Assembly: GCA_037128515.1 (NCBI GenBank)
Contig: JBAXWF010000004.1
Location: 38,319-102,318 of the forward strand
DNA length: 64,000 nt
Reading direction: 5' to 3'
Origin: Bacteroidota bacterium
GTDB taxonomy: Bacteria > Bacteroidota > Bacteroidia > Bacteroidales > CAIWKO01
Shown here: one piece after another, positions 2,774 through 31,439 of the stretch
Numbering within the stretch: position 1 is the stretch's first letter
Layout: every line of letters begins with the position of its first letter
Made by a program: the position numbers and the translations under genes
The notes under the pieces: model-generated
The model's input: the letters and a program-made list of their open reading frames with translations, nothing else
The model's database searches: none
What the model was told of the DNA's origin: nothing

Positions 2774-5170
2774 TTATTTGGTTTTTTTATCGATTATTTC
2801 GAAATTGATGGTGAGGCTGATGCCTTTTTGGTTGACTAGGGTGAGCTGGTGCATGCCGGGCGGGGGGGTGAGGCCCATTTGGTGAAAATCTTGTGTGATG
2901 CCGATGAAGGTGTTGTCTAAATACCAGTAAATTTTAATTGATGGGGTGTTGTCGGCAGCTTTGAAAACGAGTTTTTGGCGTGTTCCGTTGATATCGACCG
3001 GGATGTATATTCGGCTGTTGTTTTTGGGGTATATCATGTCGAGGGCATTGGTGGTGTTGTCGGTGGGCATGCAATCGGCGCGGTAGGGGGGCAGGGTTTT
3101 GTAGAAGGGGTTTTTGGTTTTGTAGAAATATTCAATGACGGGGGGCAGTATAAACCATTTTTGGGGTTGGATGTTGGAAACGGATTCGCAATTGGAGTTG
3201 ACACGCCATTGGAGGGTGGCGTCGAGCAGGATAATTTGATGGTAGGGGCAACCTTGGGTTTTGGCTCCGTTTTTTTGTACCCAAACGGTGTCGATTGTTT
3301 CGCAAAGGTTGGTGGCTTTGAATCCGCTGTTGCGGCAAACGGGGAGTTGAATCATATCGTCGTAGGGTGCATAGAACCAGCCGTGGGGTTTTAGGGCTTT
3401 GAAGATTTCGAGCATGATGGGTGCGGCATAGGTTAGGCCGGTCATTCCGGGGCGGCCTTCGCCATCGGAATTGCCTACCCACACGGCCACGACGTATTGT
3501 GGATTGGTGCCAATGGCCCATGCATCGCGACTTCCGTAGCTTGTGCCGGTTTTCCAGGCAATTTTGGCGGATGAGGTGAATTGTTGCCATTGGGCATCTT
3601 CGTCGGGGCGGGAAACTTCGTTCATTGCCTGAAAGGTGAACCAAATGGAGGAGGCGCTGAGGTAGGATGCTTTGTCGGTGCCGGAGGTTTTTGGGGGGTA
3701 TTGCTGATAAATATAGTTTGGGGGATGGAAATCGTTTTTGGAATAGCGGGAATTGAAGGTTTGATAGTGGTTGAGGGTGCGCGCCATGGATGCATAGGCT
3801 CCGGCCATATCCCACAAATTGGCTTCGGCCCCGCCGAGAATTATTGACAAACCGTAGTGGGATGGGGGTTTGTTGAGGGTGGTGAGTCCAATTTTTTTTA
3901 GGATATAGTTGAAACGGTTGATTCCATAAGCTTGTAGCATTTTTACGGCTGGGACGTTTAGTGATCGCGAAAGTGCTTTTTTGGCGGGTACGGCTCCATC
4001 GTAGGTTAGGCTGAAATTTTCGGGGATGAAGCTTCCGAGTTGTATGGGTGTGTCGGGTACGAGTGAATTGGGGAGGAGTTGGCCATCGTTGAGCATGGCG
4101 GCATAGAGAAAGGGTTTGAGAATGCTGCCTGTGCTTCGGGCTGATGTGATGATATCGACGTTGCAACCGTATTCGGGATGGAGGGGATCGTTGGTGTTGC
4201 CGATGTAGGCGAGCACGTTGCCGGTTTCGACATCTAAAACTAGTGCGGCAGCATTGTTGACGTTGTTGGCTTTTTGTTTTTCGTGATAGCGGTCGATAAT
4301 ATTTTTTACGATTTCCTGGAAAGAAACATCCAGGGTGGTTTGGATGCGTTTACCTTTGTAACCTTGGTTGATAGCCCTATCGAGCAAATGGGGAGCTAGT
4401 TGTGGCAAGGGAAATGGTTTTGTGGGCAGGGGTTCGTTTTGTGCAAGCCAGAGTTGGTCGTTGCCCAAGTATTTACATTTGTAAAGCATGGTGAGCACGC
4501 GGTCGCGTTTTTGTTTGAGTTTTTGTTGGTTTTTTCCGGGGAAAATCAAGGATGGGCTATTGGGCAACACGGCGAGTGTGGCGGCTTCGGCCCAAGAAAG
4601 TTTTTCGGGGCTTTTGCCAAAATAGCGCCAGGAGGCGGCATCGAGGCCAACAACATTGCCACCAAAAGGCGCATTGGCAGCATAGAGTTGGAGGATTTGT
4701 TTTTTTGAATAGGTGAGTTCGAGCCGGATGGCGAGATAAGATTCGATGATTTTTTCGAAAATGGTGCGCGATTTTCCTTTTCGCGATAAGCGGACGACCT
4801 GCATGGTGATGGTGCTTCCGCCAGAGATAATTTTTCGGGCTTTGATGTCGCGAAAGACCGCTTTGGCGATTGAAATGGGGTTGACGCCATTGTGGAGGTA
4901 AAAATATTTGTCTTCGAATTGTATGAGGGCTTTTTCGAATTTATAGGGAATTTGGCTGCCGGGCGGAAACCGCCATTGACCATCGTTGGCGATGCGAGCT
5001 CCCATAAGATTTTGGTTTTGATCTTGGATGACAGACGAAGTTGGGTCGTGAAATAATGGTGAGGGAAGAGATGCCAGAAACACTAGGAAACAAAGGAAAA
5101 CAATAAAAATCCATGCATTTTTACGAAAGAAAATCAGCGTTTGATATTTTGATGGAAAAAAAAATTTCAT
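2774..5170 (-). CDS. pbpC: Penicillin-binding protein 1C (bifunctional transglycosylase/transpeptidase)
   Basis: 798 aa with an N-terminal TM segment. GT51 motifs EDKYFYLHNGVNP and GGSTITMQ. Transpeptidase SILK (SxxK) and KTGTS. Long C-terminal extension as in PBP1C. Confidence 0.85.
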   Translation of the reverse strand: MKFFFPSKYQTLIFFRKNAWIFIVFLCFLVFLASLPSPLFHDPTSSVIQDQNQNLMGARIANDGQWRFPPGSQIPYKFEKALIQFEDKYFYLHNGVNPISIAKAVFRDIKARKIISGGSTITMQVVRLSRKGKSRTIFEKIIESYLAIRLELTYSKKQILQLYAANAPFGGNVVGLDAASWRYFGKSPEKLSWAEAATLAVLPNSPSLIFPGKNQQKLKQKRDRVLTMLYKCKYLGNDQLWLAQNEPLPTKPFPLPQLAPHLLDRAINQGYKGKRIQTTLDVSFQEIVKNIIDRYHEKQKANNVNNAAALVLDVETGNVLAYIGNTNDPLHPEYGCNVDIITSARSTGSILKPFLYAAMLNDGQLLPNSLVPDTPIQLGSFIPENFSLTYDGAVPAKKALSRSLNVPAVKMLQAYGINRFNYILKKIGLTTLNKPPSHYGLSIILGGAEANLWDMAGAYASMARTLNHYQTFNSRYSKNDFHPPNYIYQQYPPKTSGTDKASYLSASSIWFTFQAMNEVSRPDEDAQWQQFTSSAKIAWKTGTSYGSRDAWAIGTNPQYVVAVWVGNSDGEGRPGMTGLTYAAPIMLEIFKALKPHGWFYAPYDDMIQLPVCRNSGFKATNLCETIDTVWVQKNGAKTQGCPYHQIILLDATLQWRVNSNCESVSNIQPQKWFILPPVIEYFYKTKNPFYKTLPPYRADCMPTDNTTNALDMIYPKNNSRIYIPVDINGTRQKLVFKAADNTPSIKIYWYLDNTFIGITQDFHQMGLTPPPGMHQLTLVNQKGISLTINFEIIDKKTK

Positions 5171-15414: not shown

Positions 15415-16905
15415 TCAAAACTCCAAATAAATAAAAGGTTGCGTATCGGCCGAAAATGCCTGATAAATAAAAATTACACCCACCGCCACCACCAAAGTCT
15501 TCAAAGCCCAGTGCAAGGCCACAAAACGGCGAGTGAAAATATCATTCCATTTCATAGGCGAATAAATAAGAAAAAAAGCCACCACCATGATCACAAGTGG
15601 TCGCGTATAAAGCTGTGCCCACTGCCCTGCCACACTCAAAGTAAAATGCGAAAACACCAGCGAATAAACCTTTGCTGCGGCCTGCAAACTTTCGGCACGA
15701 AACAACACCATAGAAAATGCCAAAAAATGAAAAGTAACGAAAATACTTAGAAAGCGATACAGCCCACTCAATTTACTTTTCGATAATTTTGAGCGCGTAT
15801 TCACTGTCACAAAAGTTAATGCAATGGCCAATCCGTGCGAAGTGCCCCACAAGATATACGTCCAGTTTGGCCCATGCCAAAAACCCGAAATAAAAAACGT
15901 AATAAGCACCGCCAAAACAACACCCGCTTGTTTAAACCGCCTGAAAGTGAACGAAAGCGGGTAAAACACATACTCATTAAACCATCCCGACAAAGTCATG
16001 TGCCAACGTCGCCAAAAATCCGCCACATTATTAGCCATAAAAGGCTTGTTGAAGTTCGGACTCACTGCAAAACCTAGCAGCATTGCCAACCCGATAACAA
16101 TATCGGTATAACCCGAAAAATCGAAATATATTTGAATGGCATAACCATAAATAGCCATCAACCCTTCAAAACCAGTAAAAAATTCGGGCGAATCGAACAC
16201 CCTATCAACAAGATTTGCACCTAAAAAATCTGCAATAAAAACTTTTTTAAATGTACCGATTAGTATCAACAAAAAGGCTTTTCCAATCAGCTCACGTGTA
16301 AAATTCAGTTTGCTTTGAAACTGCGGCAACAAATCGCGTGCTTTCGAAATAGGACCTGCCAATATATTTGGGAAAAACGAAACGTAGAGTAAATAATTGA
16401 AATAGTTTTTTTCGGGCTTATCAATTACCTCGCGATAAATATCAAAAATATACGACAAAGTTTTAAACACAAAAAACGAAATACCAATAGGCATTATCAA
16501 ATTCAAAATCACCGGCGAAGGCTGGCCTGTGGTTATACCAAAAAAAGTGTTTAACAAAAAATTGGTGTATTTAAAAAGAATTAAAGCCCCAATATTGATA
16601 AAAATTGAAAGCAACAACAACAATTTCTTTTTTTGCTGAGTGCTAACTCGAAACATCTTTTTCCCGATCAAATAATCGGAAGAGGCCATTAGTATAAGCA
16701 AAATCAAATAAAACCCCGAAATTTTATAATAAAAGAACAAACTAAAAGCCAGCAATAGCAGGTTTCGCTTTTTGATGTCGTTATACACAAAAACATAGCC
16801 GATATACAGAAACGAAAACAACACAATAAACAACACCGAATTGAACACCAAAGGCGATTTGGGGCTATAAACAAGTGCGTTTAAAAATTCATTAATGATG
16901 TTCAT
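15415..16905 (-). CDS. MBOAT family O-acyltransferase (AlgI/DltB/PatA-like)
   Basis: 496 aa and polytopic. Motifs FWRRWHMTLSGWFNEYVFYPL and GFWHGPNWTYILWG are typical of the AlgI/DltB family. Confidence 0.9.
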   Translation of the reverse strand: MNIINEFLNALVYSPKSPLVFNSVLFIVLFSFLYIGYVFVYNDIKKRNLLLLAFSLFFYYKISGFYLILLILMASSDYLIGKKMFRVSTQQKKKLLLLLSIFINIGALILFKYTNFLLNTFFGITTGQPSPVILNLIMPIGISFFVFKTLSYIFDIYREVIDKPEKNYFNYLLYVSFFPNILAGPISKARDLLPQFQSKLNFTRELIGKAFLLILIGTFKKVFIADFLGANLVDRVFDSPEFFTGFEGLMAIYGYAIQIYFDFSGYTDIVIGLAMLLGFAVSPNFNKPFMANNVADFWRRWHMTLSGWFNEYVFYPLSFTFRRFKQAGVVLAVLITFFISGFWHGPNWTYILWGTSHGLAIALTFVTVNTRSKLSKSKLSGLYRFLSIFVTFHFLAFSMVLFRAESLQAAAKVYSLVFSHFTLSVAGQWAQLYTRPLVIMVVAFFLIYSPMKWNDIFTRRFVALHWALKTLVVAVGVIFIYQAFSADTQPFIYLEF

Positions 16906-16908
16906 AAA

Positions 16909-18759
16909 CTATGGAATAAGCAAAGTTTGTCCGATGCTTAATTTTTCGGTTTTAAGTTTGTTTAATTGTTTAATTTTATCGACTGTGGTGTTATATTTTC
17001 GTGCAATAGACCAAAGCGAATCGCCCGAAGCAACTTTATAAACAGCTTTTCGCTGACCGGGTCGAGTTTCGTTTGTGGGTTTAATGGCAGTTTGGTTTTG
17101 AGGCACAGAGGTTTTCTCCACTGATTTTGGCACCGGATTAACGGCAGGAACGTGCGATTTTTTATATATCACCAACGATTCACCCGCAATAATTTTTGTG
17201 CCCGACAAACCATTCCAATACTGTAGGTCTTTTACCGAAACACCATGCCGCTCGGCAATAGCTCCCAAGTTGTCACCCGAACGGATAGTATAATAACGCC
17301 GGTCAGTGCCCTCTGTATCGTTTTCGGGTTCGGTATATACCACAGTTGGTTCTACCTTGGTATTTTCTTTTTTAAAGTTAAGTTCTTCAACAAAATATTT
17401 CTTTAATTGTGTGGTGTCCAGTGCATGTTTTTCGGCCACCAAACTATCCGATTTGCTTTTCAACCACAATACATAAGAATTTAAAATTGCATTCAAATAC
17501 AATTCGCCCTTGGTATAATATCCGGGAGTGGTCAAATGAATTTTGTCGGGTTTAGATAGTCCACGTTTATACCACAAATTCATCGAGCCTTTGTTGCCGC
17601 TCACATCATAGTAGTTATAAAAAGCACATTTACGGTATTCGGCCACACGTCGGGTTACTTCCATAAAATCTTTGCATTCTACAATATCTCTTTTTCGTCT
17701 GTACAAAATATCTTGTGAATTTGAAATGATGATAGATGTTGACGGTGTTGCCCGCTGAATAATATCAATAATTTTTACCAAATTACTTTCCATCTCTGCC
17801 GTATTAAAGGCACCTCCATAAAAATCGTTTGCCCCCAAATCTAAGATTACCAAATCGGGACAAAATTCGGCAATTTGAGTTTCGAAAATTCGTTGTTTTA
17901 ATATGCTTTTATAGCCAGCACCGTTTATACCGGTGCTACAGTATAGCACCCCACTGTTTTCCCGACTTTCAATCATCAAGCCATAACACTCAAAAAAGTT
18001 TTGTTTTTTGTTGGTTTTATTCATTGTAACCTCGATGGTGTCCGATGCTTTCGAAAGCGAGATAAGGATATAGGGTTTTTTGGCAGCATTATCGCTGCAA
18101 TCAACATAAATCGGTAGCGAACCCGAATTCGTTTTAAGCTTGATATCGTAGCTCAAACTGTCTTGCTTGCAATAGAGTTTAATAACACTGAAGTTGTCAC
18201 GGATAAATCCATCACGAAACACAATTTTAAAACTTGCAGCCGAATCTTTTGTATGGATGGTGGCACCAATCAATCCCATGTCGAACACTGCTTCGCGCTG
18301 AGTGTTACGGGTCCATTCCCATATTCCGGTGCAATAGGTTTTATAATCATAAGCCGAATGCGTTCCGGCAGCTCGGTATGGAAAAATCAATCCACGTCCT
18401 CCATAGCCGAATATATCCTGCAAGCGTTCGCGTATATATCCTGATGGAATGTCGGCCTGAAGGTGCGAGTCGCCAATGTGTAATATTTTTAATTTCCGTC
18501 TAGGAGTTTTTGGTATTTTTCTAAAAAACGAATCAATAGCCGCGAGGTTTGTCCATTCTATATAATTTCTGTTATAATTGATAAAAGGGTAGTAGTTTTG
18601 GTACCTTATCAGTTCATTCATAAACTTCGGACTAGAAATAGAATCTTCAACAAGTTGGGCACGGAAAACCGGTTTCATATAATTTCTGAACGCAAGCAAT
18701 ATTGCTATCATTGGTATAAGCGCCAAAATCCAAAACCGATATCGTCGAGCACGATGCAT
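16909..18759 (-). CDS. Membrane-anchored SGNH/GDSL-like protein with two C-terminal LysM domains
   Basis: N-terminal TM segment. Block I HIGDSHLQAD, then a long insertion, then LDLGANDF and PDKIHLT blocks. Two LysM repeats (YTIRSGDNLGAIAERHGV.., YKVASGDSLWSIARKYNT..). A GTG at 18762 is an alternative start. Confidence 0.8.
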   Translation of the reverse strand: MHRARRYRFWILALIPMIAILLAFRNYMKPVFRAQLVEDSISSPKFMNELIRYQNYYPFINYNRNYIEWTNLAAIDSFFRKIPKTPRRKLKILHIGDSHLQADIPSGYIRERLQDIFGYGGRGLIFPYRAAGTHSAYDYKTYCTGIWEWTRNTQREAVFDMGLIGATIHTKDSAASFKIVFRDGFIRDNFSVIKLYCKQDSLSYDIKLKTNSGSLPIYVDCSDNAAKKPYILISLSKASDTIEVTMNKTNKKQNFFECYGLMIESRENSGVLYCSTGINGAGYKSILKQRIFETQIAEFCPDLVILDLGANDFYGGAFNTAEMESNLVKIIDIIQRATPSTSIIISNSQDILYRRKRDIVECKDFMEVTRRVAEYRKCAFYNYYDVSGNKGSMNLWYKRGLSKPDKIHLTTPGYYTKGELYLNAILNSYVLWLKSKSDSLVAEKHALDTTQLKKYFVEELNFKKENTKVEPTVVYTEPENDTEGTDRRYYTIRSGDNLGAIAERHGVSVKDLQYWNGLSGTKIIAGESLVIYKKSHVPAVNPVPKSVEKTSVPQNQTAIKPTNETRPGQRKAVYKVASGDSLWSIARKYNTTVDKIKQLNKLKTEKLSIGQTLLIP

Positions 18760-18761
18760 CA

Positions 18762-20243
18762 CTATTTTTTTAATCGTTGTTTGTGAACATAAATATTGTA
18801 TTCTATCATTAAGGCCTCTACAAGTTCTTTTGCAATTATTTTTTGTCCTTTTTCCGAAAAATGTCCGTTCGTTACAGCAAGTTTTTTATCGGTCCAGGTT
18901 AAAATAGAATTGAGCCCCCCCATCATATTAAACAAATCCCAATAGGCACATCCAGCTTTCAAGGCAGCTTTTTTCTGAGCTTCTGTAATTTTGGGCAACC
19001 ATGCATAAGATGAGTAGCCGCCTTCGCCACCCTTGGCCATATCTCCTGCACCAATCACTAAAATACTTATATCGGGCTTTGCCTTCTTAAATTTCATGAA
19101 AAGTTTATAATAAATACCTCCAATCCATTCGCAAGCCTCGTCAGAATGAATGTAGGGCACCACATTGGCACCGTACTGAAATATGACAAGTTTGGTGTTC
19201 GTAAGATTCAACATGTCACTAAGCCTGTCATCATTAATCATCATCAATCCATCACCCGAATGACCACGGATAGCGTAATTATCAACCTGAACACCCTTAC
19301 CGCTGTCGAAATACATCCCATAAAAATCGGGGCTATTATCAGCAGTAAATTCAACTTTCACGTTCAAATAATTGCCCAATTGGGTTTTATGCAAACATAC
19401 TTTGTTGCACGATATAAGAGTATCGGATTTAATAAGGTCGCCACGAACATTATCATAAAAATTCACAATACAATCGTCGGTGGCCTTGCCATATAAAAAC
19501 GAAACAGAATTGTATGCATATTGACTACCCATTTTCATCGAAACACTGGCATTATAATAAGATTTACCTGCTTTAAATTGGTGGGTATCTTTTTTTGATG
19601 ATAAAGTGTCGTTGTCTGCATCATCTTCACTTTGATGAACAAAGTATTTGTTGAATCTAAAAACAGCACCCGAAATACCATAATTATTATCGCTGCTTCT
19701 GTCATGAAAAACAGTGTATTTTGCCCAGTTACCACTGCTTTTTCGGAAATAGCTTACAGGTGTAAGATCTTTTAAAGGCACATATCCTATGCCAGTTCCG
19801 CCAAATTTTTCATGAAATTTTTCACGAACTATGTACGACATACGGTCACCTTCCAATTGCGAATCTCCATAGTGTGCAATTCGCACCGTTATTGAATCTT
19901 TTTCGTGTAATAAGGATTTAAAAAAACCATCAAGGGCACTGCCGTCTTTTGTTACCGGATTCACCAGAAAGATATTTTGTTTTTTTGGTCCCACATTCGA
20001 AAGATTGGGGCGCTTCAATATCAAATCATCGTTTACGGTGTTCGAAAGATAGTTTTCGAGCAAACTGTCCGCATTTTTATTGGCATTTTTCAACGAAAAG
20101 TCAAATAATTTTTCAGGCGAAAGAAAACGGATATTTTCTTTTACAAAGGTTGTGGCCATAGAGTTATAATAGAACGAATAACCAACAAGCAGCAATTCTG
20201 AAATCAGAATAATAATGAGTACCCCTACAGGCTTGTTCCTCAT
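18762..20243 (-). CDS. Membrane-anchored SGNH/GDSL-like protein, paralogue of 16909-18759
   Basis: N-terminal TM segment. Block I HYGDSQLEGD aligns with HIGDSHLQAD of the neighbour. Later IRGHSGDG, FQYGANV and VTNGHFS blocks. The stop overlaps the next gene's start. Confidence 0.75.
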   Translation of the reverse strand: MRNKPVGVLIIILISELLLVGYSFYYNSMATTFVKENIRFLSPEKLFDFSLKNANKNADSLLENYLSNTVNDDLILKRPNLSNVGPKKQNIFLVNPVTKDGSALDGFFKSLLHEKDSITVRIAHYGDSQLEGDRMSYIVREKFHEKFGGTGIGYVPLKDLTPVSYFRKSSGNWAKYTVFHDRSSDNNYGISGAVFRFNKYFVHQSEDDADNDTLSSKKDTHQFKAGKSYYNASVSMKMGSQYAYNSVSFLYGKATDDCIVNFYDNVRGDLIKSDTLISCNKVCLHKTQLGNYLNVKVEFTADNSPDFYGMYFDSGKGVQVDNYAIRGHSGDGLMMINDDRLSDMLNLTNTKLVIFQYGANVVPYIHSDEACEWIGGIYYKLFMKFKKAKPDISILVIGAGDMAKGGEGGYSSYAWLPKITEAQKKAALKAGCAYWDLFNMMGGLNSILTWTDKKLAVTNGHFSEKGQKIIAKELVEALMIEYNIYVHKQRLKK

Positions 20244-20254
20244 AATATAGCCTT

Positions 20255-20500
20255 TTAGGCAGCCAGTTTGGTTTCTATTGACTTCATGAAATCACCCACG
20301 TTTTTCATAGAAATCAGTTCTTTCAGTTTAAATTTAATGGCAAATTCGGTTTCGGTGGCCGAAATCAGAATAAGATGGGTCAGCGAATCCCATTTCTCAA
20401 TATCTTTAGCAGTGGTTTCTTCCGAAATAACGATTGTATTATCTTTGAAAACCGTACAAAAGACTTGATTCAGGCGAGTTTTAATTTCATCGTAATGCAT
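20255..20500 (-). CDS. Acyl/peptidyl carrier protein (DltC-like size)
   Basis: 81 aa. EKWDSLTHLILISATE contains the DSL phosphopantetheine-attachment type serine. It lies 11 nt upstream of the SGNH gene. Confidence 0.75.
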   Translation of the reverse strand: MHYDEIKTRLNQVFCTVFKDNTIVISEETTAKDIEKWDSLTHLILISATETEFAIKFKLKELISMKNVGDFMKSIETKLAA

Positions 20501-20599
20501 AATAACGCATGTTTTTAAAAAAGAGGGACAAAGGTCGTAATAATTTAGAACATAACAAAATAATGTAGATTTTATTCTGTGCTTAAAGGCAAGGGCTTT

Positions 20600-23242
20600 T
20601 TATTTCTCTTTTTTCTCCACAGCATCCTCCTCATCCCAAATCACATTAAAATCGTATTTGTCCTTTGGCTTAATATTTTTATTTAGAGTACTGTCCTTTT
20701 TAAACCAACCAAATTCGCGATTTAAAATAGTTTTCAAGTTTTCTTTTTCTTTAACCAGATTCTCCTTCATGTTTTCTTTATACCCATCTTTATCCAGCGT
20801 TCTATATATTGGTTTATCAACAGTTCCGGTAATTCTGAAAAAATATTTTTCCTTATGAAGACCGTCGTCAATAATTTGTCCTATATCTTCAACCTTATCA
20901 TTTTTGTGTTCACCACTATTCTTAAGTTGCGATATTAATACACTTAAATGATAGTCGATAGTCTGATCAAAACCATGGGTGCCATTCAGTTTAAAGTTGA
21001 TGGCGGTGCTGTTAATTTCCATGTCCGGAATAGTAATCAACTGATCTTTTATAACAATGGTGTTTTTCAGTGTTTGAAAAGCAACATGCGAAAGGTCTCG
21101 GTTTTTTAGATATTTAGACAAACCCTTCAAGGGCTCATAATCAATCAGCTCTCCATTTTCAATTACAATATTGGCTTTAGCATAAATCGTGCGTTTTTCA
21201 ACCGTAAGTGTCGACGACCACACAGAAGCAAACTGAACATCGGCCGTGAGCACCCCCTTAAGATTATTATCTTGAAGACTTTTTTGGCCAAAATTTTCCA
21301 ATTCATAAAACAATCGTTGAATAGTCACTTTTTTAATCGAGGCATCACAACTTATCAACAGCTTGTCGGGTTGAGAACCATCAATAAGTCCCGCAAAATC
21401 AATCTTTCCATTCACGGCCTGAAGCGAAATATCCTTAGCAATTAGTTGTTTGTTTTTCATTATTATGGTACCCGAAATATTCTTTGCACTAAACTTCTTA
21501 AATACAAAATTCTTCAATTGTACGGTAAGATTAAAACCGATATTATCAGGCAAGCGAAGTTTGTAAACAGTATCATTTCTATTTTCCGAGAATTTCAAAA
21601 TTTCTCCCAAGTCAAGGTTTTGCGAAACCAAGTCGGCGTCAATTATAAGGTTTTGATTTTCTAAAAACAAATAAGGCAAAATGTTTATAAAGCGCCCTTT
21701 TAACGAAAAATCATTCGACATATAGCTTCCGGTGAAATTTTGAGATTCCACATCGTTGTTGTTAAAAACAAAATTTCCGTTTAAGTTCATAAACTTTTGT
21801 TGCTTTCCCTTTAAAATAATATTGGCGTTCTCAAGGTCCATCTTACCCGTGCATGTACTCGAAATAAAATCTTTCATTGTAAAGCGGTCAGAATTTTCAA
21901 TTATTCCTTTAAAATCGGCCTGTACCACAATTCTCCCATCGGCAGATTCAATGGTATCCAATTTAATAAAATCAATAAAATCCTTTAAGCCCAGGTTGGC
22001 CGATACTTTTAATTCGATCTCCGGCTTCAAAAAGTTGTGAATCGATACATTTCCATTGATAGTACCATCATTTAATGAAGAGGAAAATCCGGTGATATTT
22101 AATCGAGAGGTTTGTTTTTCATGTTTAGCTCCATTCGAATATACCGCACTAAAACCCACGTTTTTCAAAGCAATAGCATTTTCCGAACGAACAATCTCTC
22201 CTTTGCTGAGTCCAAACGAAACATATATGGCGGGAGTAGCATTGTTTCCAACATAACCCTTGATACTTGCCTGAAAGTAAAAATCACCCGAGCATTCATA
22301 TCCATTAAAATAGGAACGGTATTGGGGGGGCAATTCGTTAACAAACGATTGCAGCCGCATCTTTTTCCCATCAATTTGCAAATCTGTGTAAGTAAGGCTA
22401 TCGGCATACGAAATATTTCCGCCAACCGAAAAAACAAGCTTACCCATAGCAATACTCGATTCTTTAAAAGAGAGGTATTTTTCCTTGCTATTAATGTATA
22501 ATGTAGCGTCCACAACGCTTCCTTTGTTTGCCAAATACAGCTCGTTTCCCGATTTTATGTTCTGAACATAAATATCGCCGTCTATATCCAATGTATACTC
22601 AACATCCGAAAACCTGCCTTTAAACAATGCCTCTTTAACCAAAAAAGTAAAGTTCTGCTGTCGTCCATAGTCGATATACGATATTTTTACTTTATTCAAC
22701 ACAACTTTTTGCAAATCAAAGGAAAATTTCGAACTTGCAGTATCGGTCGATGGTTTCCAAAAATGATAATTATCGCTTCGGTCTTTATACGTTTTTATAA
22801 GGACAATAGCCTCATCAATTGCTATTCTTTTTATGTGATACTCACCGAATAGCATATTCCAAATACTAAATTCCAGAGAAACACTTTTCGCTTCAAGCAA
22901 GTTTTTTTTATTTTTTTTATCCGCTATGGCATCAAGAATTATAACATGATTAAAACTAACCGATGCATAAGGAAACTTTTTAAATATGGAAAATTGAATG
23001 TCGCGATTTACATCCTGAACAATAATTTCGGTATTTAAACGCTTATTGAGTTCGTTGATGATGATTCGCTTAACGGTATCCTCATAATAATACCCCATGA
23101 AAATACCAATACAACCAAAAAACACGAATACAACCAAAAGAGTTATGGCGGCCTTTTTAAGTCGTTTGGCTACTTTCGGATTTTTTATCCTTAAACTTAG
23201 CTTTTTCACCGGGTTTTTTTGCAAATTTAATTCAACTATCAT
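20600..23242 (-). CDS. AsmA-family outer-membrane biogenesis protein
   Basis: 880 aa with a single N-terminal TM segment (AAITLLVVFVFFGCIGIFMGYYY), followed by a long beta-rich periplasmic region and a basic C-terminal tail. Architecture is typical of AsmA-like proteins. Confidence 0.65.
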   Translation of the reverse strand: MIVELNLQKNPVKKLSLRIKNPKVAKRLKKAAITLLVVFVFFGCIGIFMGYYYEDTVKRIIINELNKRLNTEIIVQDVNRDIQFSIFKKFPYASVSFNHVIILDAIADKKNKKNLLEAKSVSLEFSIWNMLFGEYHIKRIAIDEAIVLIKTYKDRSDNYHFWKPSTDTASSKFSFDLQKVVLNKVKISYIDYGRQQNFTFLVKEALFKGRFSDVEYTLDIDGDIYVQNIKSGNELYLANKGSVVDATLYINSKEKYLSFKESSIAMGKLVFSVGGNISYADSLTYTDLQIDGKKMRLQSFVNELPPQYRSYFNGYECSGDFYFQASIKGYVGNNATPAIYVSFGLSKGEIVRSENAIALKNVGFSAVYSNGAKHEKQTSRLNITGFSSSLNDGTINGNVSIHNFLKPEIELKVSANLGLKDFIDFIKLDTIESADGRIVVQADFKGIIENSDRFTMKDFISSTCTGKMDLENANIILKGKQQKFMNLNGNFVFNNNDVESQNFTGSYMSNDFSLKGRFINILPYLFLENQNLIIDADLVSQNLDLGEILKFSENRNDTVYKLRLPDNIGFNLTVQLKNFVFKKFSAKNISGTIIMKNKQLIAKDISLQAVNGKIDFAGLIDGSQPDKLLISCDASIKKVTIQRLFYELENFGQKSLQDNNLKGVLTADVQFASVWSSTLTVEKRTIYAKANIVIENGELIDYEPLKGLSKYLKNRDLSHVAFQTLKNTIVIKDQLITIPDMEINSTAINFKLNGTHGFDQTIDYHLSVLISQLKNSGEHKNDKVEDIGQIIDDGLHKEKYFFRITGTVDKPIYRTLDKDGYKENMKENLVKEKENLKTILNREFGWFKKDSTLNKNIKPKDKYDFNVIWDEEDAVEKKEK

Positions 23243-24440: not shown

Positions 24441-26150
24441 TTGTTTTTCAATAAATACCTTACGCTGCTTCTGTGTGTCCTTAATGGCTTGCCTTTTGTA
24501 TTTTCGCAAACGCTAGCACCAAATCGCAATTTCCGTTTGCCCTTAGATATTTTGCCTGTGATAAGTGGCACATTCGGCGAACTTCGTTCCGATCATTTTC
24601 ATTCGGGTCTCGATTTTTCAACGCAGAACAAAGAAAACGTCAACGTGTTTTGCATTGACAACGGCTATGTTTCGCGCATCAAGATTTCTGCCACAGGCTA
24701 CGGAAAAGTAATTTATGTGACACATGCCAACGGATGGGTTACGGTGTATGCACACTTGAACGAGTTCAATGTGGTGGTTGAAGATTATGTCAGGCGCAAA
24801 CAATACGAACAAAAAACCTACGAAATAGAATTGTTTCCCAACCCAGCCTTGTTTCATGTCAAAAAAGGCGACATCATCGGCTATTCGGGCAACACAGGGG
24901 CTTCTTCGGGTCCGCATTTGCATTTCGAGTTTCGCAATGCGCGCACCGAACTGCCCATCAACCCCTTTTATTTTGGCACCTATCCTGTTGACAAGCTAAG
25001 CCCCGACATCGAAAAAATATACTTCTACACAACCAGCGCGGAGGGTATAAACAAAACCGCTGTCGACATCCAAAAGGTAGGAAACGGTTTCAAACCAAAA
25101 ACCAACGACACACTAACGGTGTCGGGCAAAACATTTTTTGGCATCGCGGCATCCGACAATATCAACAACGGGGGCACTTGCGGAATTTATGCCCTGAAAA
25201 TACTTGTCGATTCCACCCTGGTTTTCAATCTGCATTTCGATTCGTTGAGCTTCAACGATGGCCGATACATCAACACCCTCATTGATTATCCCGAATATGT
25301 AACGCGGGGCAAACGCATCATTCAAACCTATGTAGCCCCAGGTAATCGTTTGAACAATAATGTGGATGCGCTAAACAATGGCCTCTGGCAAATTACCGAC
25401 ACCTGTGTGCATATGGTAAAATTTTGGGTTTACGACTTTCAGGGCAACCTTTCTTCGGTTGAGAAAACGGTGAAATGGAAACCCGAAATTAGCAAGCAAA
25501 ACGAGTCAAACAAAACCGTTTTACCGCTTTTTCGTTATGGGTTGAAAAACCATTTCGAAGCCGAAAACATTACAGTCGATTTGCCTCCCGACGCCCTCTA
25601 CGATTCCATTTATTTTGATTGCCAAACTCTAGCCGCAAGCAAACAAACCTATTCAAAGATTTTTAAGATTCACAACAACCTTACACCCATTCACTCCTTT
25701 GCAACCCTGAAAATAAAACCCGACACCACTCTGCCCCTTGCCATGCGCGAAAAACTCACCCTGGCCGAGGTTTCGGGAAAGAACTTTGTGTATACACGCA
25801 GCGAATGGGCTGGCGAGTACCTGTCGGCAAAAATACGCCGCTTTGGCAACTATGCCATTGTGGCCGATACCATCGCGCCCGAAATAGCTTATCTGGGCAT
25901 GGGGGGCTCCAAAAAAATCGACACCGACGGACAAATCAAATTTAAAATTACCGACGATTTTTCAGGCATAGCCACCTACCAACTCACCATCAACGGCCAA
26001 TGGGTGTTGGCTGCCTACGATGCCAAATCAGATATGCTTATCTACAAAACCGACCCCCTGCAATTCAAAAAAGGGAGCAACGATATCGAAGTGCGGGTAA
26101 CCGACAAGCTCAACAACCAACGCATTTTCCGCACCACCATCAACTATTAA
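24441..26150 (+). CDS. M23 family metallopeptidase, long form
   Basis: 569 aa with a TTG start. HFHSGLDF (HxxxD) and GPHLHFEF (HxH) motifs, followed by about 380 aa of beta-rich C-terminal region. Confidence 0.85.
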   Translation: MFFNKYLTLLLCVLNGLPFVFSQTLAPNRNFRLPLDILPVISGTFGELRSDHFHSGLDFSTQNKENVNVFCIDNGYVSRIKISATGYGKVIYVTHANGWVTVYAHLNEFNVVVEDYVRRKQYEQKTYEIELFPNPALFHVKKGDIIGYSGNTGASSGPHLHFEFRNARTELPINPFYFGTYPVDKLSPDIEKIYFYTTSAEGINKTAVDIQKVGNGFKPKTNDTLTVSGKTFFGIAASDNINNGGTCGIYALKILVDSTLVFNLHFDSLSFNDGRYINTLIDYPEYVTRGKRIIQTYVAPGNRLNNNVDALNNGLWQITDTCVHMVKFWVYDFQGNLSSVEKTVKWKPEISKQNESNKTVLPLFRYGLKNHFEAENITVDLPPDALYDSIYFDCQTLAASKQTYSKIFKIHNNLTPIHSFATLKIKPDTTLPLAMREKLTLAEVSGKNFVYTRSEWAGEYLSAKIRRFGNYAIVADTIAPEIAYLGMGGSKKIDTDGQIKFKITDDFSGIATYQLTINGQWVLAAYDAKSDMLIYKTDPLQFKKGSNDIEVRVTDKLNNQRIFRTTINY

Positions 26151-30340: not shown

Positions 30341-31111
30341 TTATTTATTTGGATTATTTATCTCAAGCACATCACTTTTTATTGAATCCTTGTATAATTC
30401 ATAACCCAGAATGGTTTTAGGATAATTAATTATACAACTATCAATTTGGTTTTTTAAACTAGTTGTTGGATTATTGTTTTGTTTAAGGTAATATAAATCC
30501 CTGAAGTTATTTGGATAAACAAATTGTATCTGTTCCAAATCTATATTCCAATGCATAATAATTACTTCCTTTGCAGGAATAAACAAACAATGCATATTCC
30601 GCAATATAGAATGTTTTATCTCACGGTCAAGTTGGTTAGTATCTGCAAATTCTGATTCTGTTTCAAATGATAACCGACCATAATGATGATTAAAAGCAAA
30701 AGTTCTGTATAAAGGAGAAATATGATAAAATAGCTCATTAGCAACCTTTAATCTAAAATTATCATCTTCATAAACCGGACCACGATAGCTCTTTCCACAA
30801 TTGCACTGTTTATCATTTTTACTTAAATTATCTAGCATGGATAATCCGCTATCAGCATGTGGAATGGCACCATAAGCATCATCCATTGCGTCATAAATAG
30901 TTCCATTATATTCTTTCTTTACATTAAAAAACCAAGAACCCGGCGATAGATATATATTCCGATCTTGGTTGTTTTTTATGGATAGACATAACGCTAAGAT
31001 TTTATTATTAATATGCTTTGTTATCCTAACGCAGATAGACTTATTTTTACATTGATTATTATATGCAGTTAAGAAAAAGAGTGCAAATAATATTAAAATA
31101 AAACGTTTCAT
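30341..31111 (-). CDS. Secreted hypothetical protein (island gene A)
   Basis: Signal peptide MKRFILILFALFFLTAYN begins at Met39 of the 294-aa ORF. The 38 upstream codons fall inside the repeated GC-rich module and are unlikely to be part of a secreted protein. Confidence 0.6.
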   Translation of the reverse strand: MKRFILILFALFFLTAYNNQCKNKSICVRITKHINNKILALCLSIKNNQDRNIYLSPGSWFFNVKKEYNGTIYDAMDDAYGAIPHADSGLSMLDNLSKNDKQCNCGKSYRGPVYEDDNFRLKVANELFYHISPLYRTFAFNHHYGRLSFETESEFADTNQLDREIKHSILRNMHCLFIPAKEVIIMHWNIDLEQIQFVYPNNFRDLYYLKQNNNPTTSLKNQIDSCIINYPKTILGYELYKDSIKSDVLEINNPNK

Positions 31112-31120
31112 AATATCCTC

Positions 31121-31291
31121 CCCTGATGGCGCGCGTTGCACCCACCGTTTACGCGCGTCACCCGACGCGTGCAGTGGTTTCTCATGCGCCATGTCAATCG
31201 TTTCAATAATTTTTTCTTGCATCATTTTACGGTAATCACTTCGCTCGAAATGAATATAAAATTCAGCAAACTACTTAACTCAACATAATTT
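31121..31291 (-). repeat. GC-rich leader module, copy 1 (171 bp)
   Basis: Aligns without gaps to 32240-32410 with 12 mismatches by hand count. It ends 10 nt upstream of the gene A start. Contains the palindromic cores ACGCGT and CGCGCG. Confidence 0.9.
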
Positions 31292-31361
31292 ATCAGTTGT
31301 TTTATATTTTTCCGACAGTTACAACAAAATTAATACATTTTTTATTCTTTTCTTACATTGT

Positions 31362-31439
31362 CGCGCATGAGCTATTACAAAATGTACGCGTTACAAACGC
31401 GCGCAAACATTTGTGAAACGCGCGCCATCAAGGAAGCTT
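31362..31439 (+). repeat. Degenerate inverted copy of the GC-rich part of the module
   Basis: The reverse complement of 31121-31190 aligns to cgcgcatgag..tgtacgcgt..acgcgcgcaaac..aacgcgcgccatcaagg. The cores are conserved and many G/C positions have become A/T. It lies 26 nt downstream of the gene B stop. Confidence 0.7.

What the first reader, a model, noticed from the sequence alone, without database searches (positions are those of the whole stretch)
15415..20500. ACP - SGNH - SGNH/LysM - MBOAT operon: a Dlt/Pat hybrid envelope-acylation cassette with no visible loader
Four minus-strand genes are packed with 11-nt, about 0-nt (TAG overlapping GTG/ATG at 18757-18764) and 3-nt spacers.
- An 81-aa carrier protein with a DSL serine motif.
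- Two paralogous, N-terminally anchored SGNH-like proteins. Block I is HYGDSQLEGD / HIGDSHLQAD, followed by a long insertion and then GxN(D) and xxH blocks.
- The second SGNH paralogue ends in two LysM repeats.
- An AlgI/DltB/PatA-type MBOAT (WRRWHMTLSGW, FWHGPNW).

Two established systems are relevant. Dlt uses DltA ligase, DltC carrier, DltB MBOAT and SGNH-like DltD. Peptidoglycan O-acetylation uses PatA MBOAT with PatB/Ape1 SGNH enzymes and no carrier. This locus combines a carrier (Dlt logic), LysM domains pointing at murein (Pat/Ape logic) and duplicated SGNH partners. There is no adenylating or loading enzyme in the window.

Inference: a carrier-protein-dependent acylation or aminoacylation of peptidoglycan or another envelope glycan in a Bacteroidota. 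I do not know of a characterised example.
Basis: partly seen in the sequence, partly recalled or inferred. Interest (0 to 1): 0.7.

Follow-up and report, generated by a model that had tools for sequence, protein, structure and literature searches.

The report
Carrier-protein-fed peptidoglycan acylation operon
A real four-gene operon in an uncultured Bacteroidales bacterium couples a small acyl carrier protein to a membrane acyltransferase and two cell-wall esterase-like enzymes. This is a little-known, carrier-fed version of the machinery bacteria use to decorate their cell wall, and the enzyme that loads the carrier lies outside this window.

Summary
Four tightly packed minus-strand genes encode:
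- an 81-aa WDSLxH-type acyl carrier protein (ACP);
- two membrane-anchored SGNH proteins, both of the Ape1 (O-acetyl-peptidoglycan esterase) family, the second ending in two LysM domains;
- a PatA/AlgI-type MBOAT that ends in its own FxYxxF "acyl-shuttle" motif (FIYLEF).

No adenylating enzyme lies anywhere in the 64 kb.

Comparative genomics explains the gap:
- The cassette is the carrier-bearing sister lineage of the common Bacteroidota ape1b-ape1c-patA cluster, which has no ACP and no LysM.
- In more distant carrier-bearing relatives, the orthologous ACP follows a DltA-like amino-acid adenylation enzyme plus a GNAT.
- In the sister clade, an acetyl-CoA-synthetase-like ligase with its own second ACP sits right after the MBOAT.
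- The window's clade has the ACP only, and that ACP is under strong purifying selection.

Best reading: a trans-loaded ACP feeds the MBOAT. The acyl group then passes through Tyr493 and an SGNH serine onto peptidoglycan.

The acyl group is undecided. A D-Ala-like aminoacyl is slightly favoured over acetyl.

I found no characterised example. A broader ligase-ACP-MBOAT-SGNH module turned out to be widespread. I class this as a new variant of a known kind.

The parts
20255..20500 (-). Stand-alone acyl carrier protein, 81 aa, WDSLxH subfamily. The predicted phosphopantetheine site is Ser39 (codon 20384-20386).
   Evidence: ORF. The closest solved structure is 2LML, 'putative acyl carrier protein' (E=3e-16). 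NCBIfam ACP hits are weak. 182 close homologues, mostly named ACP and from Bacteroidota. 2819 clusters at 50% identity reach E<=0.001. Against the L008 orthologue it is 81% identical in protein while synonymous sites are near saturation (pN 0.10, pS 0.70).
18762..20243 (-). SGNH1: an N-terminally membrane-anchored Ape1-family SGNH protein with a beta-sandwich insert. Key residues are Ser128 (19860-19862), Asn360 and His461 (18861-18863); Asn459 stands in place of the triad Asp.
   Evidence: A profile of six orthologues hits N. meningitidis Ape1 (4K3U, E=1e-21) and C. jejuni Ape1. The AF2 model (pLDDT 84, pTM 0.79) matches Ape1 structures 8GKD and 4K3U at E about 1e-23, with target-normalised TM 0.76-0.82 over about 400 columns. 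The next hits are at E>=1e-6. Invariant residues are listed.
16909..18762 (-). SGNH2: a second N-terminally anchored Ape1-family SGNH protein with Ser99, Asn312, Asp406 and His409. A low-complexity linker is followed by two C-terminal LysM domains.
   Evidence: The profile hits Ape1 4K3U (E=8e-28) and C. jejuni Ape1 8GKD over residues 73-425. Pfam gives Lipase_GDSL_2 and LysM x2. It is a paralogue of SGNH1, about 20% identical with shared invariant catalytic columns.
17164..17295 (-). LysM repeat 1 of SGNH2 (aa 490-533)
   Evidence: Pfam PF01476; positions.
16912..17043 (-). LysM repeat 2 of SGNH2 (aa 574-617)
   Evidence: Pfam PF01476; positions; aligns to the LytE LysM repeats in 8I2E.
15415..16905 (-). 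PatA/AlgI-type MBOAT, 496 aa, with conserved His302 and His344. It has two extra C-terminal hydrophobic helices (429-447 and 462-480) beyond the part that aligns to DltB.
   Evidence: Pfam MBOAT E=6e-23. Aligns to DltB structures 8JEM and 6BUG over residues 135-403 (E about 2e-28). TIGR04091 DltB scores 194 bits, below its 375-bit cutoff. Hydropathy.
15418..15435 (-). C-terminal hexapeptide FIYLEF (aa 491-496), matching the FxYxxF acyl-shuttle motif. Tyr493 is the predicted covalent acyl acceptor.
   Evidence: Sequence. The motif definition and its role in DltX and PatA come from PMC12148441. It is conserved as F-x-Y-[LI]-x-[FY] in all ACP-bearing relatives and as FIYFQF in the ACP-less sister clade.
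20501..20599 (-). A 99-nt intergenic gap upstream of the ACP gene; the likely promoter region of the operon (not demonstrated).
   Evidence: Sequence. It is the only sizeable gap in the cluster. The sigma-70 consensus scan was uninformative.

Best explanation
The four genes form one operon for a carrier-protein-fed MBOAT-SGNH acyl relay that esterifies peptidoglycan.

Proposed steps:
1. The cytoplasmic ACP carries an acyl group as a thioester on the phosphopantetheine arm at Ser39. Shown: carrier-family membership and the motif. Inferred: modification and loading.
2. The ACP docks on the cytoplasmic face of the MBOAT, as DltC does on DltB. The MBOAT (His302/His344) moves the acyl group to Tyr493 of its own C-terminal FIYLEF tail on the periplasmic side. 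Shown: the motif and the two extra helices. Inferred by analogy with DltB/DltX and PatA: the chemistry.
3. The acyl-Tyr is handed to the catalytic serine of one of the two membrane-anchored Ape1-type SGNH proteins (Ser128 or Ser99), and from there to a hydroxyl of the peptidoglycan glycan. The LysM pair on SGNH2 would hold the complex on murein. The second SGNH paralogue may trim or reverse the modification.
4. The ACP is charged in trans by an adenylating enzyme encoded outside this window.

The window's ACP is orthologous to ACPs that directly follow a DltA-like amino-acid adenylation enzyme and a GNAT in relatives. The leading candidate for the acyl group is therefore a small D-Ala-like amino acid, possibly N-acetylated. 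This last point is the weakest step. Acetate or another short acyl group is a close second.
For: Operon and conservation:
- The genes are packed with 11, -1 and 3 nt spacers.
- The same four-gene unit occurs in the closest relatives in different neighbourhoods.

ACP linkage:
- ACP, LysM and an FxY[LI]xF tail co-occur in one monophyletic MBOAT clade.
- The sister clade, about 67 loci covering most Bacteroidota orders, has none of the three.
- In the window's larger clade every cassette keeps at least one ACP, either ACP1 or ACP2.
- The ACP is under strong purifying selection in loaderless cassettes.

Loaders in relatives:
- L005, L006, L013, L015, L017, L020 and L056 carry an A-domain and GNAT, with the ACP next in all of these except L013.
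- The L005 A-domain scores 320 bits on TIGR01733, above its 317-bit cutoff. Those of L006 (305) and L004 (295) fall just below it. DltA is the next-best family for all three.
- Pocket code is DLMSLCVIFK, against DLMSMCTVAK for B. subtilis DltA, and it includes the Cys that sets D-Ala selectivity.
- The ACP tree places the window's ACP with these A-domain-partnered ACPs, not with the ligase-partnered ones.
- Loader parts are often dispersed. L016 has the GNAT but no A-domain, L013 has no ACP, and L001 became ACP-only independently next to type-c L017.

Mechanism:
- The FxYxxF Tyr shuttle and the carrier-to-MBOAT logic come from PMC12148441.

Target:
- SGNH2 has two LysM domains.
- Both SGNH proteins are Ape1-family by sequence profile, and SGNH1 also by predicted structure.
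- The sister cluster type occurs in Bacteroides, whose peptidoglycan is heavily O-acetylated (PMC1199599; PMC11382707).
Against: - No loader is in the window, so steps 1 and 4 are inferred.
- The sister clade of the window's cassette carries an acetyl-CoA-synthetase-like ligase, which points to acetate rather than an amino acid.
- Both SGNH partners resemble a known esterase (Ape1). Neither resembles a proven transferase such as PatB, DltD or AlgX.
- SGNH1 lacks the triad Asp.
- LysM also binds chitin-like and other GlcNAc glycans, so the target is not proven.
- Direct ACP-MBOAT contact was not modelled.
- All trees are neighbour-joining without support values.
Confidence: 0.45

Rival explanations
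1. Same carrier-fed relay onto peptidoglycan, but the group is acetyl or another short-chain acyl. An acetyl-CoA-synthetase-like ligase encoded elsewhere in the genome makes acetyl-S-ACP. The system is then an acetyl-ACP-dependent version of peptidoglycan O-acetylation.
For: - The sister clade of the window's cassette (60-71% SGNH1 identity, same flanking genes in L011) has such a ligase plus a second WDSLxH ACP directly after the MBOAT.
- The ligase scores 651 bits on NF003313 acetate--CoA ligase, below its 729-bit cutoff, and its best PDB hit is an acetyl-CoA synthetase at E=2e-140.
- Some of those cassettes have lost ACP1 and work with ligase plus ACP2 alone.
- Three of four acetate-pocket residues are conserved or conservative; Trp414 is Phe.
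- The ligase family is followed by an ACP in 70 of 74 loci and sits next to an FxYxxF MBOAT in 53 of 63.
- The sister ACP-less cluster type and the Ape1 fold are both associated with acetyl esters (PMC1199599).
Against: - The window's ACP belongs to the A-domain-partnered clade, not the ligase-partnered clade.
- The ligase nearly always brings its own ACP, which suggests it does not use ACP1.
- No such ligase is in the window or next to the cassette in the five closest relatives.
Confidence: 0.3
2. The machinery works as described, but the acceptor is not peptidoglycan. It could be another envelope glycan such as LPS or O-antigen, a capsule, or a GlcNAc-rich exopolysaccharide.
For: - Related ligase-ACP-MBOAT modules sit in polysaccharide gene clusters with ALGX- or DUF1574-type partners.
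- LysM also binds chitin-like glycans.
- An AsmA/YhdP-like outer-membrane lipid-transport gene lies directly upstream in the window, the P0241 contig and L010.
Against: - Both partners are Ape1-family, and the only characterised members of that family act on peptidoglycan.
- No glycosyltransferase or polysaccharide export genes flank the cassette in the window or its relatives.
- The AsmA neighbour is not conserved; it is absent in L008, L001 and the P0242 contig.
Confidence: 0.15
3. The ACP gene is a bystander or serves another pathway. The MBOAT uses acetyl-CoA like PatA, which would make this an ordinary Bacteroidota O-acetyl-peptidoglycan cluster.
For: - PatA was shown to use acetyl-CoA (PMC12148441).
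- The ACP-less sister clusters evidently work without a linked carrier.
- L013, L018 and L019 have the LysM-type cassette without an ACP in the locus.
Against: - The ACP sits 4-19 nt upstream of SGNH1 in relatives spanning 33-86% SGNH1 identity and in different genomic neighbourhoods.
- It is absent from all of about 67 sister-type loci.
- Loader genes for the carrier are embedded in the cassette in many relatives.
Confidence: 0.08

Closest known systems
PatA/PatB/Ape1 peptidoglycan O-acetylation system of Neisseria and Campylobacter
   Same: - An MBOAT with two extra C-terminal helices and an FxYxxF Tyr shuttle.
- A periplasmic, N-terminally anchored SGNH partner with Ser/His.
- An Ape1-family protein encoded in the same cluster.
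- Peptidoglycan as the likely target.
   Different: - No PatB (DUF459) homologue; both partners are Ape1-like.
- A dedicated acyl carrier protein is co-conserved, whereas PatA uses acetyl-CoA.
- One partner carries LysM domains.
Bacteroides/Porphyromonas 'OAP' cluster ape1b-ape1c-pat (Weadge, Pfeffer & Clarke 2005, PMC1199599)
   Same: - Same gene order: SGNH, SGNH, MBOAT.
- Same phylum.
- Both SGNH proteins belong to the Ape1 family.
- The MBOATs are sister clades.
   Different: - That lineage has no ACP and no LysM, a shorter SGNH2, and an FIYFQF tail.
- The window's lineage adds the carrier, the LysM domains and, in relatives, loader enzymes.
- I did not verify the assignment of SGNH2 to subfamily '1c'.
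DltABCD/DltX D-alanylation of teichoic acids
   Same: - The logic: carrier protein to MBOAT to Tyr of an FxYxxF motif to an SGNH serine to an envelope polymer.
- Relatives of the cassette carry a stand-alone A-domain with a DltA-like pocket.
   Different: - The MBOAT scores below the DltB family cutoff and carries the shuttle motif itself, so there is no separate DltX.
- The carrier belongs to the WDSLxH subfamily, not DltC.
- The SGNH partners are Ape1-like, not DltD.
- A GNAT accompanies the A-domain in relatives.
- The host is a Gram-negative without teichoic acids.
AlgI/AlgJ/AlgF/AlgX and WssFGHI (alginate and cellulose O-acetylation)
   Same: An MBOAT with a fused C-terminal shuttle motif plus periplasmic SGNH-like partners.
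   Different: - Those partners are ALGX-type, and no carrier protein has been described for them.
- However, ALGX-type partners do occur in the related ligase-ACP-MBOAT modules seen here.
WDSLxH/N acyl carrier proteins (solved example PDB 2LML, a Geobacter structural-genomics target; from my own knowledge this is GmACP3, proposed to act in LPS biosynthesis)
   Same: Same motif and 4-helix carrier family (E=3e-16). Geobacteraceae carry the ligase-ACP-MBOAT-SGNH module.
   Different: The window's ACP belongs to the sub-clade partnered with A-domain/GNAT, not the ligase-partnered one. No function has been shown for either sub-clade.
AlmEFG glycine modification of Vibrio cholerae lipid A (from my own knowledge)
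   Same: A Gram-negative envelope aminoacylation that uses a DltA-like ligase and a carrier protein.
   Different: The transfer is done by a cytoplasmic-face LpxL-like acyltransferase. It involves no MBOAT, no SGNH protein and no Tyr shuttle.

Membership tests
Bacterial MBOAT-SGNH polymer acyltransferase systems (PatAB / AlgIJFX / Dlt class) | Polytopic MBOAT with the conserved catalytic histidines | tested here: met
   Pfam MBOAT E=6e-23. WRRWH302 and FWH344G align to the WNRWH and GFWHG motifs of DltB structure 8JEM.
Bacterial MBOAT-SGNH polymer acyltransferase systems (PatAB / AlgIJFX / Dlt class) | FxYxxF acyl-shuttle hexapeptide at an extracytoplasmic C-terminus (on the MBOAT or on DltX) | tested here: met
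   The protein ends in FIYLEF after two extra hydrophobic helices. The motif definition is from PMC12148441. It is conserved in all relatives. The side of the membrane was not tested.
Bacterial MBOAT-SGNH polymer acyltransferase systems (PatAB / AlgIJFX / Dlt class) | Co-encoded extracytoplasmic SGNH-fold partner with a catalytic Ser and His | tested here: met
   Ser128/His461 in SGNH1 and Ser99/His409 in SGNH2 are invariant in alignments. Each protein has an N-terminal anchor with a positively charged N-terminus.
PatA/PatB O-acetyl-peptidoglycan system | PatB (DUF459) type transferase partner | tested here: not met
   No DUF459 hit. Both partners match Ape1 instead.
PatA/PatB O-acetyl-peptidoglycan system | Acetyl-CoA as donor, no carrier protein | tested here: not met
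   A carrier protein is co-conserved with this MBOAT clade, and loader enzymes are embedded in relatives' cassettes. The donor itself cannot be tested in silico.
Ape1 family (O-acetyl-peptidoglycan esterase; SGNH with an inserted beta-sandwich) | SGNH fold interrupted after block I by a CBM-like beta-sandwich, with overall similarity to solved Ape1 | tested here: met
   Profile searches against PDB give 4K3U at E=1e-21 for SGNH1 and E=8e-28 for SGNH2. The AF2 model of SGNH1 has strands at 153-322 between the block I and block III regions. Foldseek returns Ape1 as the top hits at E about 1e-23 with TM 0.76-0.82.
Ape1 family (O-acetyl-peptidoglycan esterase; SGNH with an inserted beta-sandwich) | Ser-His-Asp catalytic triad | tested here: inconclusive
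   SGNH2 has D406-x-x-H409. SGNH1 of the window's clade has N459-G-H461, whereas more distant orthologues have D-G-H.
Ape1 family (O-acetyl-peptidoglycan esterase; SGNH with an inserted beta-sandwich) | Esterase (rather than transferase) activity on O-acetyl-MurNAc | not testable with these tools
   Requires enzyme assays.
Dlt pathway (DltA, DltB, DltC, DltD, DltX) | DltA D-alanine-carrier ligase in the system | tested here: not met
   None in the 64 kb window. DltA-like A-domains are present next to the orthologous ACP in relatives, but they score below the DltA cutoffs: about 290 bits against 476 and 560.
Dlt pathway (DltA, DltB, DltC, DltD, DltX) | DltB equivalog MBOAT without a fused shuttle, plus a separate DltX microprotein | tested here: not met
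   TIGR04091 scores 194 bits, below its 375-bit cutoff. The shuttle motif is fused to the MBOAT.
Dlt pathway (DltA, DltB, DltC, DltD, DltX) | DltD-family SGNH partner | tested here: not met
   No DltD Pfam or NCBIfam hit. The structure search returns Ape1 and no DltD in the top 50.
Dlt pathway (DltA, DltB, DltC, DltD, DltX) | Phosphopantetheinylated carrier protein as acyl donor to the MBOAT | tested here: inconclusive
   A carrier with a DSL serine is present and co-conserved. Its modification, loading and docking were not testable.
Bacteroidota OAP cluster (ape1b-ape1c-pat, PMC1199599) | Gene order of two Ape1-family genes followed by the MBOAT | tested here: met
Bacteroidota OAP cluster (ape1b-ape1c-pat, PMC1199599) | Membership of the same MBOAT/SGNH lineage as the Bacteroides clusters | tested here: not met
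   The window falls in the sister clade (Tier A), distinguished by ACP, LysM and tail motif. Bacteroides-type loci (L027, L036, L064) fall in Tier B.
WDSLxH/N acyl carrier proteins | W-D-S-L-x-H/N motif around the phosphopantetheine serine in a stand-alone protein of about 80 aa | tested here: met
   WDSLTH at residues 37-42. 2LML at E=3e-16. The motif is conserved in all cassette ACPs.

The most novel reading that the evidence does not exclude
Many Bacteroidota esterify their peptidoglycan, or another GlcNAc-containing envelope glycan, with a group other than plain acetate. The candidate is a D-alanyl or N-acetyl-alanyl ester, installed by a Dlt-like, carrier-fed PatA-type pathway.

More broadly, carrier-fed MBOAT-SGNH systems with interchangeable loader modules (A-domain plus GNAT, or an Acs-like ligase) would form a widespread, unrecognised third class of envelope-polymer acylation machinery. 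They reach from Bacteroidota to Geobacteraceae.
Probability: 0.3. Interest if true: 0.85.

Novelty: new variant of a known kind. Interest (0 to 1): 0.66.

Why it matters
Current models divide bacterial MBOAT-SGNH systems in two:
- Dlt, which uses a carrier-protein donor and a separate DltX shuttle.
- All the others, which use an acyl-CoA donor, have a fused shuttle and have no carrier.

This cassette and its relatives break that division. A PatA-type MBOAT with a fused shuttle is genetically tied to a dedicated carrier protein, and to two alternative loading enzymes.

If the carrier really feeds the MBOAT:
- Donor choice in these systems is modular, and the acyl group written onto the wall of a major phylum may not be acetate.
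- The function of a solved but unassigned carrier-protein family gets a concrete lead.
- The SGNH family DUF1574, which has no known function, gets a concrete lead as well.

Wall esters control lysozyme and autolysin sensitivity and innate immune recognition. A new substituent in Bacteroidota would therefore matter for gut and environmental microbiology.

Tried and rejected
- Rfam scan of the window: no hits.
- Sigma-70 promoter and terminator scan of the operon: counts at background, uninformative for a Bacteroidota.
- A weak tblastn hit of the Acs-like ligase at 3506-3703 turned out to lie in a class A PBP and is chance.
- Finding a trans-encoded loader in a complete genome with a loaderless cassette (the 3.81-Mb contig of L001/L002): I looked for ligase homologues whose longest contig matched that length. 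None appeared in the top 120 of 7993, which is inconclusive because the list is truncated.
- dN/dS: synonymous sites are saturated for most comparisons, so only pN/pS is usable.
- The key Dlt mechanism paper (PMC10664464) is not held in the library.
- Mapping SGNH2 onto Weadge's 'Ape1c' (which lacks the insert) could not be confirmed. SGNH2 keeps the insert here and in Adhaeribacter, and Bacteroides copies did not match a simple block-I pattern.
- I considered DltD, PatB and ALGX identities for the SGNH proteins and rejected them.
- I considered the AsmA-like upstream gene as part of the system and rejected it, because it is not conserved next to the cassette.
- An ACP-MBOAT complex model could not be run with the tools available.

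Full report
**1. What is in the window**

The ORF listing gives four consecutive minus-strand ORFs:
- 20255-20500, 81 aa;
- 18762-20243, 493 aa;
- 16909-18762, 617 aa;
- 15415-16905, 496 aa.

The junctions read directly from the DNA:
- an 11-nt spacer;
- a 1-nt overlap of TAG with GTG, with an ATG one codon later;
- a 3-nt spacer.

A 99-nt gap precedes the first gene and a 120-nt gap follows the last.

Family and structure searches give the following:
- The first protein is a stand-alone acyl carrier protein. It has weak ACP NCBIfam hits, and its closest solved structure is 2LML, 'putative acyl carrier protein' (E=3e-16). It carries W37-D-S39-L-T-H42.
- The second and third proteins carry GDSL/SGNH domains.
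- The third ends in two LysM repeats (E=1.5e-29).
- The fourth is an MBOAT (E=6e-23). It aligns to DltB structures over residues 135-403 but scores only 194 bits on the DltB equivalog model, whose cutoff is 375.

**2. Three refinements of the observation**

(a) The MBOAT ends in F491-I-Y493-L-E-F496, and this tail is preceded by two hydrophobic helices that lie beyond the DltB-aligned core.
- According to PMC12148441, FxYxxF is the 'acyl shuttle'.
- Its Tyr is acylated in DltX, and in the C-terminal extension of PatA-type MBOATs.
- So this is a PatA/AlgI-type MBOAT, not a DltB-type one.

(b) Both SGNH proteins belong to the Ape1 family.
- Profiles of SGNH1 and SGNH2 orthologues hit N. meningitidis Ape1 (4K3U) at E=1e-21 and E=8e-28, and also C. 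jejuni Ape1.
- An AlphaFold2 model of SGNH1 (pLDDT 84, pTM 0.79) has a beta-sandwich between block I and block III.
- That model matches the Ape1 crystal structures at E about 1e-23, with TM 0.76-0.82 over about 400 columns.
- The next hits are CE2 esterases, 17 orders of magnitude weaker in E-value. No DltD, PatB or AlgX appears among the top 50.

(c) Both paralogues keep the catalytic Ser, the Gly and Asn blocks, and His.
- SGNH1 of the window's clade has Asn459 where more distant orthologues have the triad Asp.
- Both have a single N-terminal helix with a positively charged N-terminus. Their catalytic and LysM domains should therefore be periplasmic.

**3. No loader in the window**

- tblastn and HMM searches with three loader types found in relatives gave nothing. 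The types were a DltA-like A-domain, its GNAT, and an Acs-like ligase.
- The one marginal hit lies in a class A PBP.
- Pfam scans of essentially all ORFs of 150 aa or more found no AMP-binding, GNAT, phosphopantetheinyl transferase or FabD-like protein.

**4. Relatives: two lineages**

An SGNH1-anchored scan of one genome per GTDB species found at least 598 matches, nearly all in Bacteroidota, with a few Ignavibacteria. I annotated the 80 returned loci with HMMs built here. They split cleanly.

| Feature | 'Tier B' (about 67 loci) | 'Tier A' (11 of these loci, plus the window and the ACP-anchored loci L001-L010) |
|---|---|---|
| Taxa | Bacteroidales including Bacteroides, Flavobacteriales, Cytophagales, Chitinophagales, Sphingobacteriales | Bacteroidales and other Bacteroidota, plus Ignavibacteriaceae |
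| Gene content | SGNH1, a short SGNH2 (about 410-450 aa), MBOAT | SGNH1, SGNH2 with 2-3 LysM repeats, MBOAT |
| MBOAT tail | FIYFQF | F-x-Y-[LI]-x-[FY] |
| ACP | none | present in 8 of the 11 scan loci |
| LysM | none | present |

- A neighbour-joining MBOAT tree makes each tier monophyletic and makes the two tiers sisters.
- Tier B has the gene order described in 2005 as the Bacteroides/Porphyromonas 'OAP' cluster, ape1b-ape1c-pat. That paper also measured 27-69% O-acetylation of Bacteroides peptidoglycan (PMC1199599; see also PMC11382707).
- The duplicated SGNH partners are therefore a known Bacteroidota feature. The carrier and the LysM domains are what set the window's lineage apart.

**5. 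Relatives: the loaders**

Within Tier A there are three architectures.

Type c (L005, L006/7, L013, L015, L017, L020, L056; partly L016):
- A stand-alone amino-acid adenylation enzyme and a GNAT sit directly upstream of the ACP. L013 has the A-domain and GNAT but no ACP in the locus, and L016 has the GNAT and ACP but no A-domain.
- The L005 A-domain scores 320 bits on TIGR01733, just above its 317-bit cutoff. Those of L006 (305) and L004 (295) fall just below it. DltA is the next-best family for all three at about 290 bits, below its own cutoff.
- I aligned these enzymes to GrsA and to B. subtilis DltA, whose sequence I verified against 3E7W. The specificity-pocket code is DLMSLCVIFK, against DLMSMCTVAK for DltA.
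- The two codes share the alpha-amino-binding Asp and the Cys known to set D-Ala selectivity.

Type b (L011, L012, L014, L092-L104, L172 and the P0041 contig):
- An acetate--CoA-ligase-like enzyme sits immediately after the MBOAT. It scores 651 bits on NF003313 (cutoff 729), and its best PDB hit is an acetyl-CoA synthetase at E=2e-140.
- Its acetate pocket is V, T, I, F where S. enterica Acs has V310, T311, V386, W414.
- It is followed by a second WDSLxH ACP.
- L011 shares the window's downstream genes (PCMD, a TonB-dependent receptor, a T9SS-tail protein). The ligase and ACP2 lie exactly where the window has only 120 nt.

Type a (the window; the P0241 and P0242 contigs at 86% and 81% SGNH1 identity; L008; L010; and, independently, L001-3):
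- These have the ACP only, in several different neighbourhoods.

**6. How the types relate**

- A concatenated SGNH2+MBOAT tree makes (window, L008), L010 an ACP1-only clade.
- That clade is sister to the ligase-bearing clades, in which ACP1 has often been lost. Every cassette in this group keeps at least one carrier.
- An ACP tree splits into two clades:
  - cassette ACP1, including the window's, together with the ACPs that follow the A-domain/GNAT;
  - ACP2, together with all other ligase-partnered ACPs.
- The window's ACP is 81% identical to that of L008 while synonymous sites are near saturation (pN 0.10, pS 0.70). It is therefore maintained by selection in loaderless cassettes.
- Loader components are often separated from the cassette elsewhere:
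  - L016 has the GNAT but no A-domain.
  - L013 has A-domain and GNAT but no ACP.
  - L001 is ACP-only next to type-c L017 in the tree.
- A trans-encoded loader is therefore a normal state for this family.

**7. A wider module**

I anchored a metagenome scan on the Acs-like ligase.
- 70 of 74 loci with room downstream have a WDSLxH ACP directly after the ligase.
- 53 of 63 evaluable loci have an MBOAT adjacent.
- All 29 complete downstream MBOATs end in an FxYxxF-like tail.

Their partners differ:
- an ALGX-type protein inside a polysaccharide cluster in L114;
- a DUF1574 protein in Citrifermentans bremense. DUF1574 is an SGNH family with no known function (PMC9487903).

Ligase homologues at 63-64% identity are common in Geobacteraceae. 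The ACP family as a whole comprises about 2800 clusters at 50% identity.

**8. Mechanism**

The best-supported reading is a carrier-fed relay: acyl-S-ACP (cytoplasm) to MBOAT to Tyr493 of the fused FIYLEF tail (periplasm) to the Ser of an Ape1-type SGNH partner to peptidoglycan, with LysM holding SGNH2 on murein.

What is shown:
- the families, the motifs and the predicted topology elements;
- the tight co-conservation of ACP, LysM and this MBOAT clade;
- the presence of carrier-loading enzymes inside relatives' cassettes.

What is inferred by analogy with Dlt and PatAB (PMC12148441):
- ACP docking;
- Tyr and Ser acyl intermediates;
- the direction of transfer.

Which SGNH paralogue is the transferase is unknown. 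Neither resembles a proven transferase, so an Ape1-fold transferase would itself be new.

The acyl group is undecided:
- ACP orthology and loader-carrier pairing favour a DltA-like loader, and so a small D-Ala-like amino acid, perhaps N-acetylated by the GNAT.
- The gene content of the sister clade, the Ape1 fold and the O-acetylating sister lineage favour acetate or another short acyl group.
- I put these at roughly 0.45 and 0.30.

**9. Comparison with known systems and novelty**

- The system works like Dlt (carrier to MBOAT to Tyr to SGNH). It is built like PatA/Ape (fused shuttle, Ape1-type partners, likely murein target).
- It fails defining features of both families:
  - no DltA, DltB-equivalog, DltD or DltX;
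  - no PatB and, apparently, no CoA-only donor.
- It is the sister of the Bacteroides OAP cluster, not a member of it.
- Eight full-text searches found no description of a carrier-dependent non-Dlt MBOAT-SGNH system.
- The 2025 paper explicitly says such pathways lack a carrier.
- The library omits most subscription journals, so prior description cannot be excluded.
- I class it as a new variant of a known kind, of moderately high interest. It is mechanistically predictable, but it contradicts a current generalisation, is widespread, and is directly testable.

**10. Limits**

- All functional statements are inferences from sequence, predicted structure and gene neighbourhood.
- Trees are neighbour-joining on BLOSUM distances, without support values.
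- The tier counts come from the best 80 of at least 598 genome hits and the best 80 of 167 metagenome hits.
- HMMs were built from few sequences.
- The loader of the window's own ACP was not found.

Noticed in passing
L105-L171 (e.g. L114:9992-14401, L171:8001-12243): A widespread module: Acs-like ligase, then a WDSLxH ACP, then an MBOAT ending in FxYxxF, then an SGNH-like partner. The partner is ALGX-type in L114, inside a polysaccharide cluster, and DUF1574 in Citrifermentans bremense. An ACP follows the ligase in 70 of 74 loci, and an MBOAT is adjacent in 53 of 63.
   Followed up: partly
L004:5982-12225: A variant without an MBOAT: DltA-like A-domain, GNAT, ACP, a 358-aa protein with no family hit, and a FemAB-like 300-aa protein (weak TIGR03019 hit). 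It lies next to OlsB/OlsA-like acyltransferases and a class A PBP. This suggests the same A-domain/GNAT/ACP loader also feeds a cytoplasmic FemAB-type transferase.
   Followed up: no
L011:14847-16472 (also L012, L014): In the cassette-linked Acs-like ligase, the Trp that closes the acetate pocket (Trp414 in S. enterica Acs) is Phe, while the other three pocket residues are conserved or conservative. The substrate may be slightly larger than acetate.
   Followed up: partly
window 18861-18869 (SGNH1 residues 459-461): SGNH1 of the window's clade, including the ligase-bearing L011, has Asn-Gly-His where more distant orthologues have Asp-Gly-His. The classical triad Asp is missing in one paralogue only.
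   Followed up: partly
L013, L018, L019: These loci have the LysM-type cassette (Tier A tail motif, 2-3 LysM repeats) but no ACP anywhere in the fetched locus. L018 and L019 are Ignavibacteriaceae and carry an extra divergent SGNH2-like gene plus an unrelated AMP-binding gene upstream.
   Followed up: no
Tier B loci, e.g. L027:8076-9704, L064:8040-9671: Many ACP-less Bacteroidota clusters have a third, divergent SGNH2-like gene (about 520 aa, 60-90 bits) upstream of SGNH1. The Bacteroides SGNH2 copies did not match a simple GDS block-I pattern.
   Followed up: no
window 20600-23242 (-): An 880-aa AsmA/YhdP-like protein (weak Pfam YhdP hit) lies directly upstream of the ACP gene. The same neighbour is seen in the P0241 contig and L010, but not in L008, L001 or the P0242 contig.
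   Followed up: partly
window 2774-5170 (-), 24441-26150 (+), 53595-54476 (+): Other murein-related genes are scattered in the window: a PBP1C-like class A PBP (transglycosylase, transpeptidase and BiPBP_C domains) and two M23 peptidases. None is adjacent to the cassette in relatives.
   Followed up: no
window 30341-39497: A stretch with strongly negative GC skew (32-36 kb). It holds several ORFs without any Pfam hit (30341-31225, 31465-32211, 35397-36125, 38859-39497), a LuxR-type regulator (32674-33360), and a protein with four 'HA' helicase-associated repeats (37114-38463).
   Followed up: no
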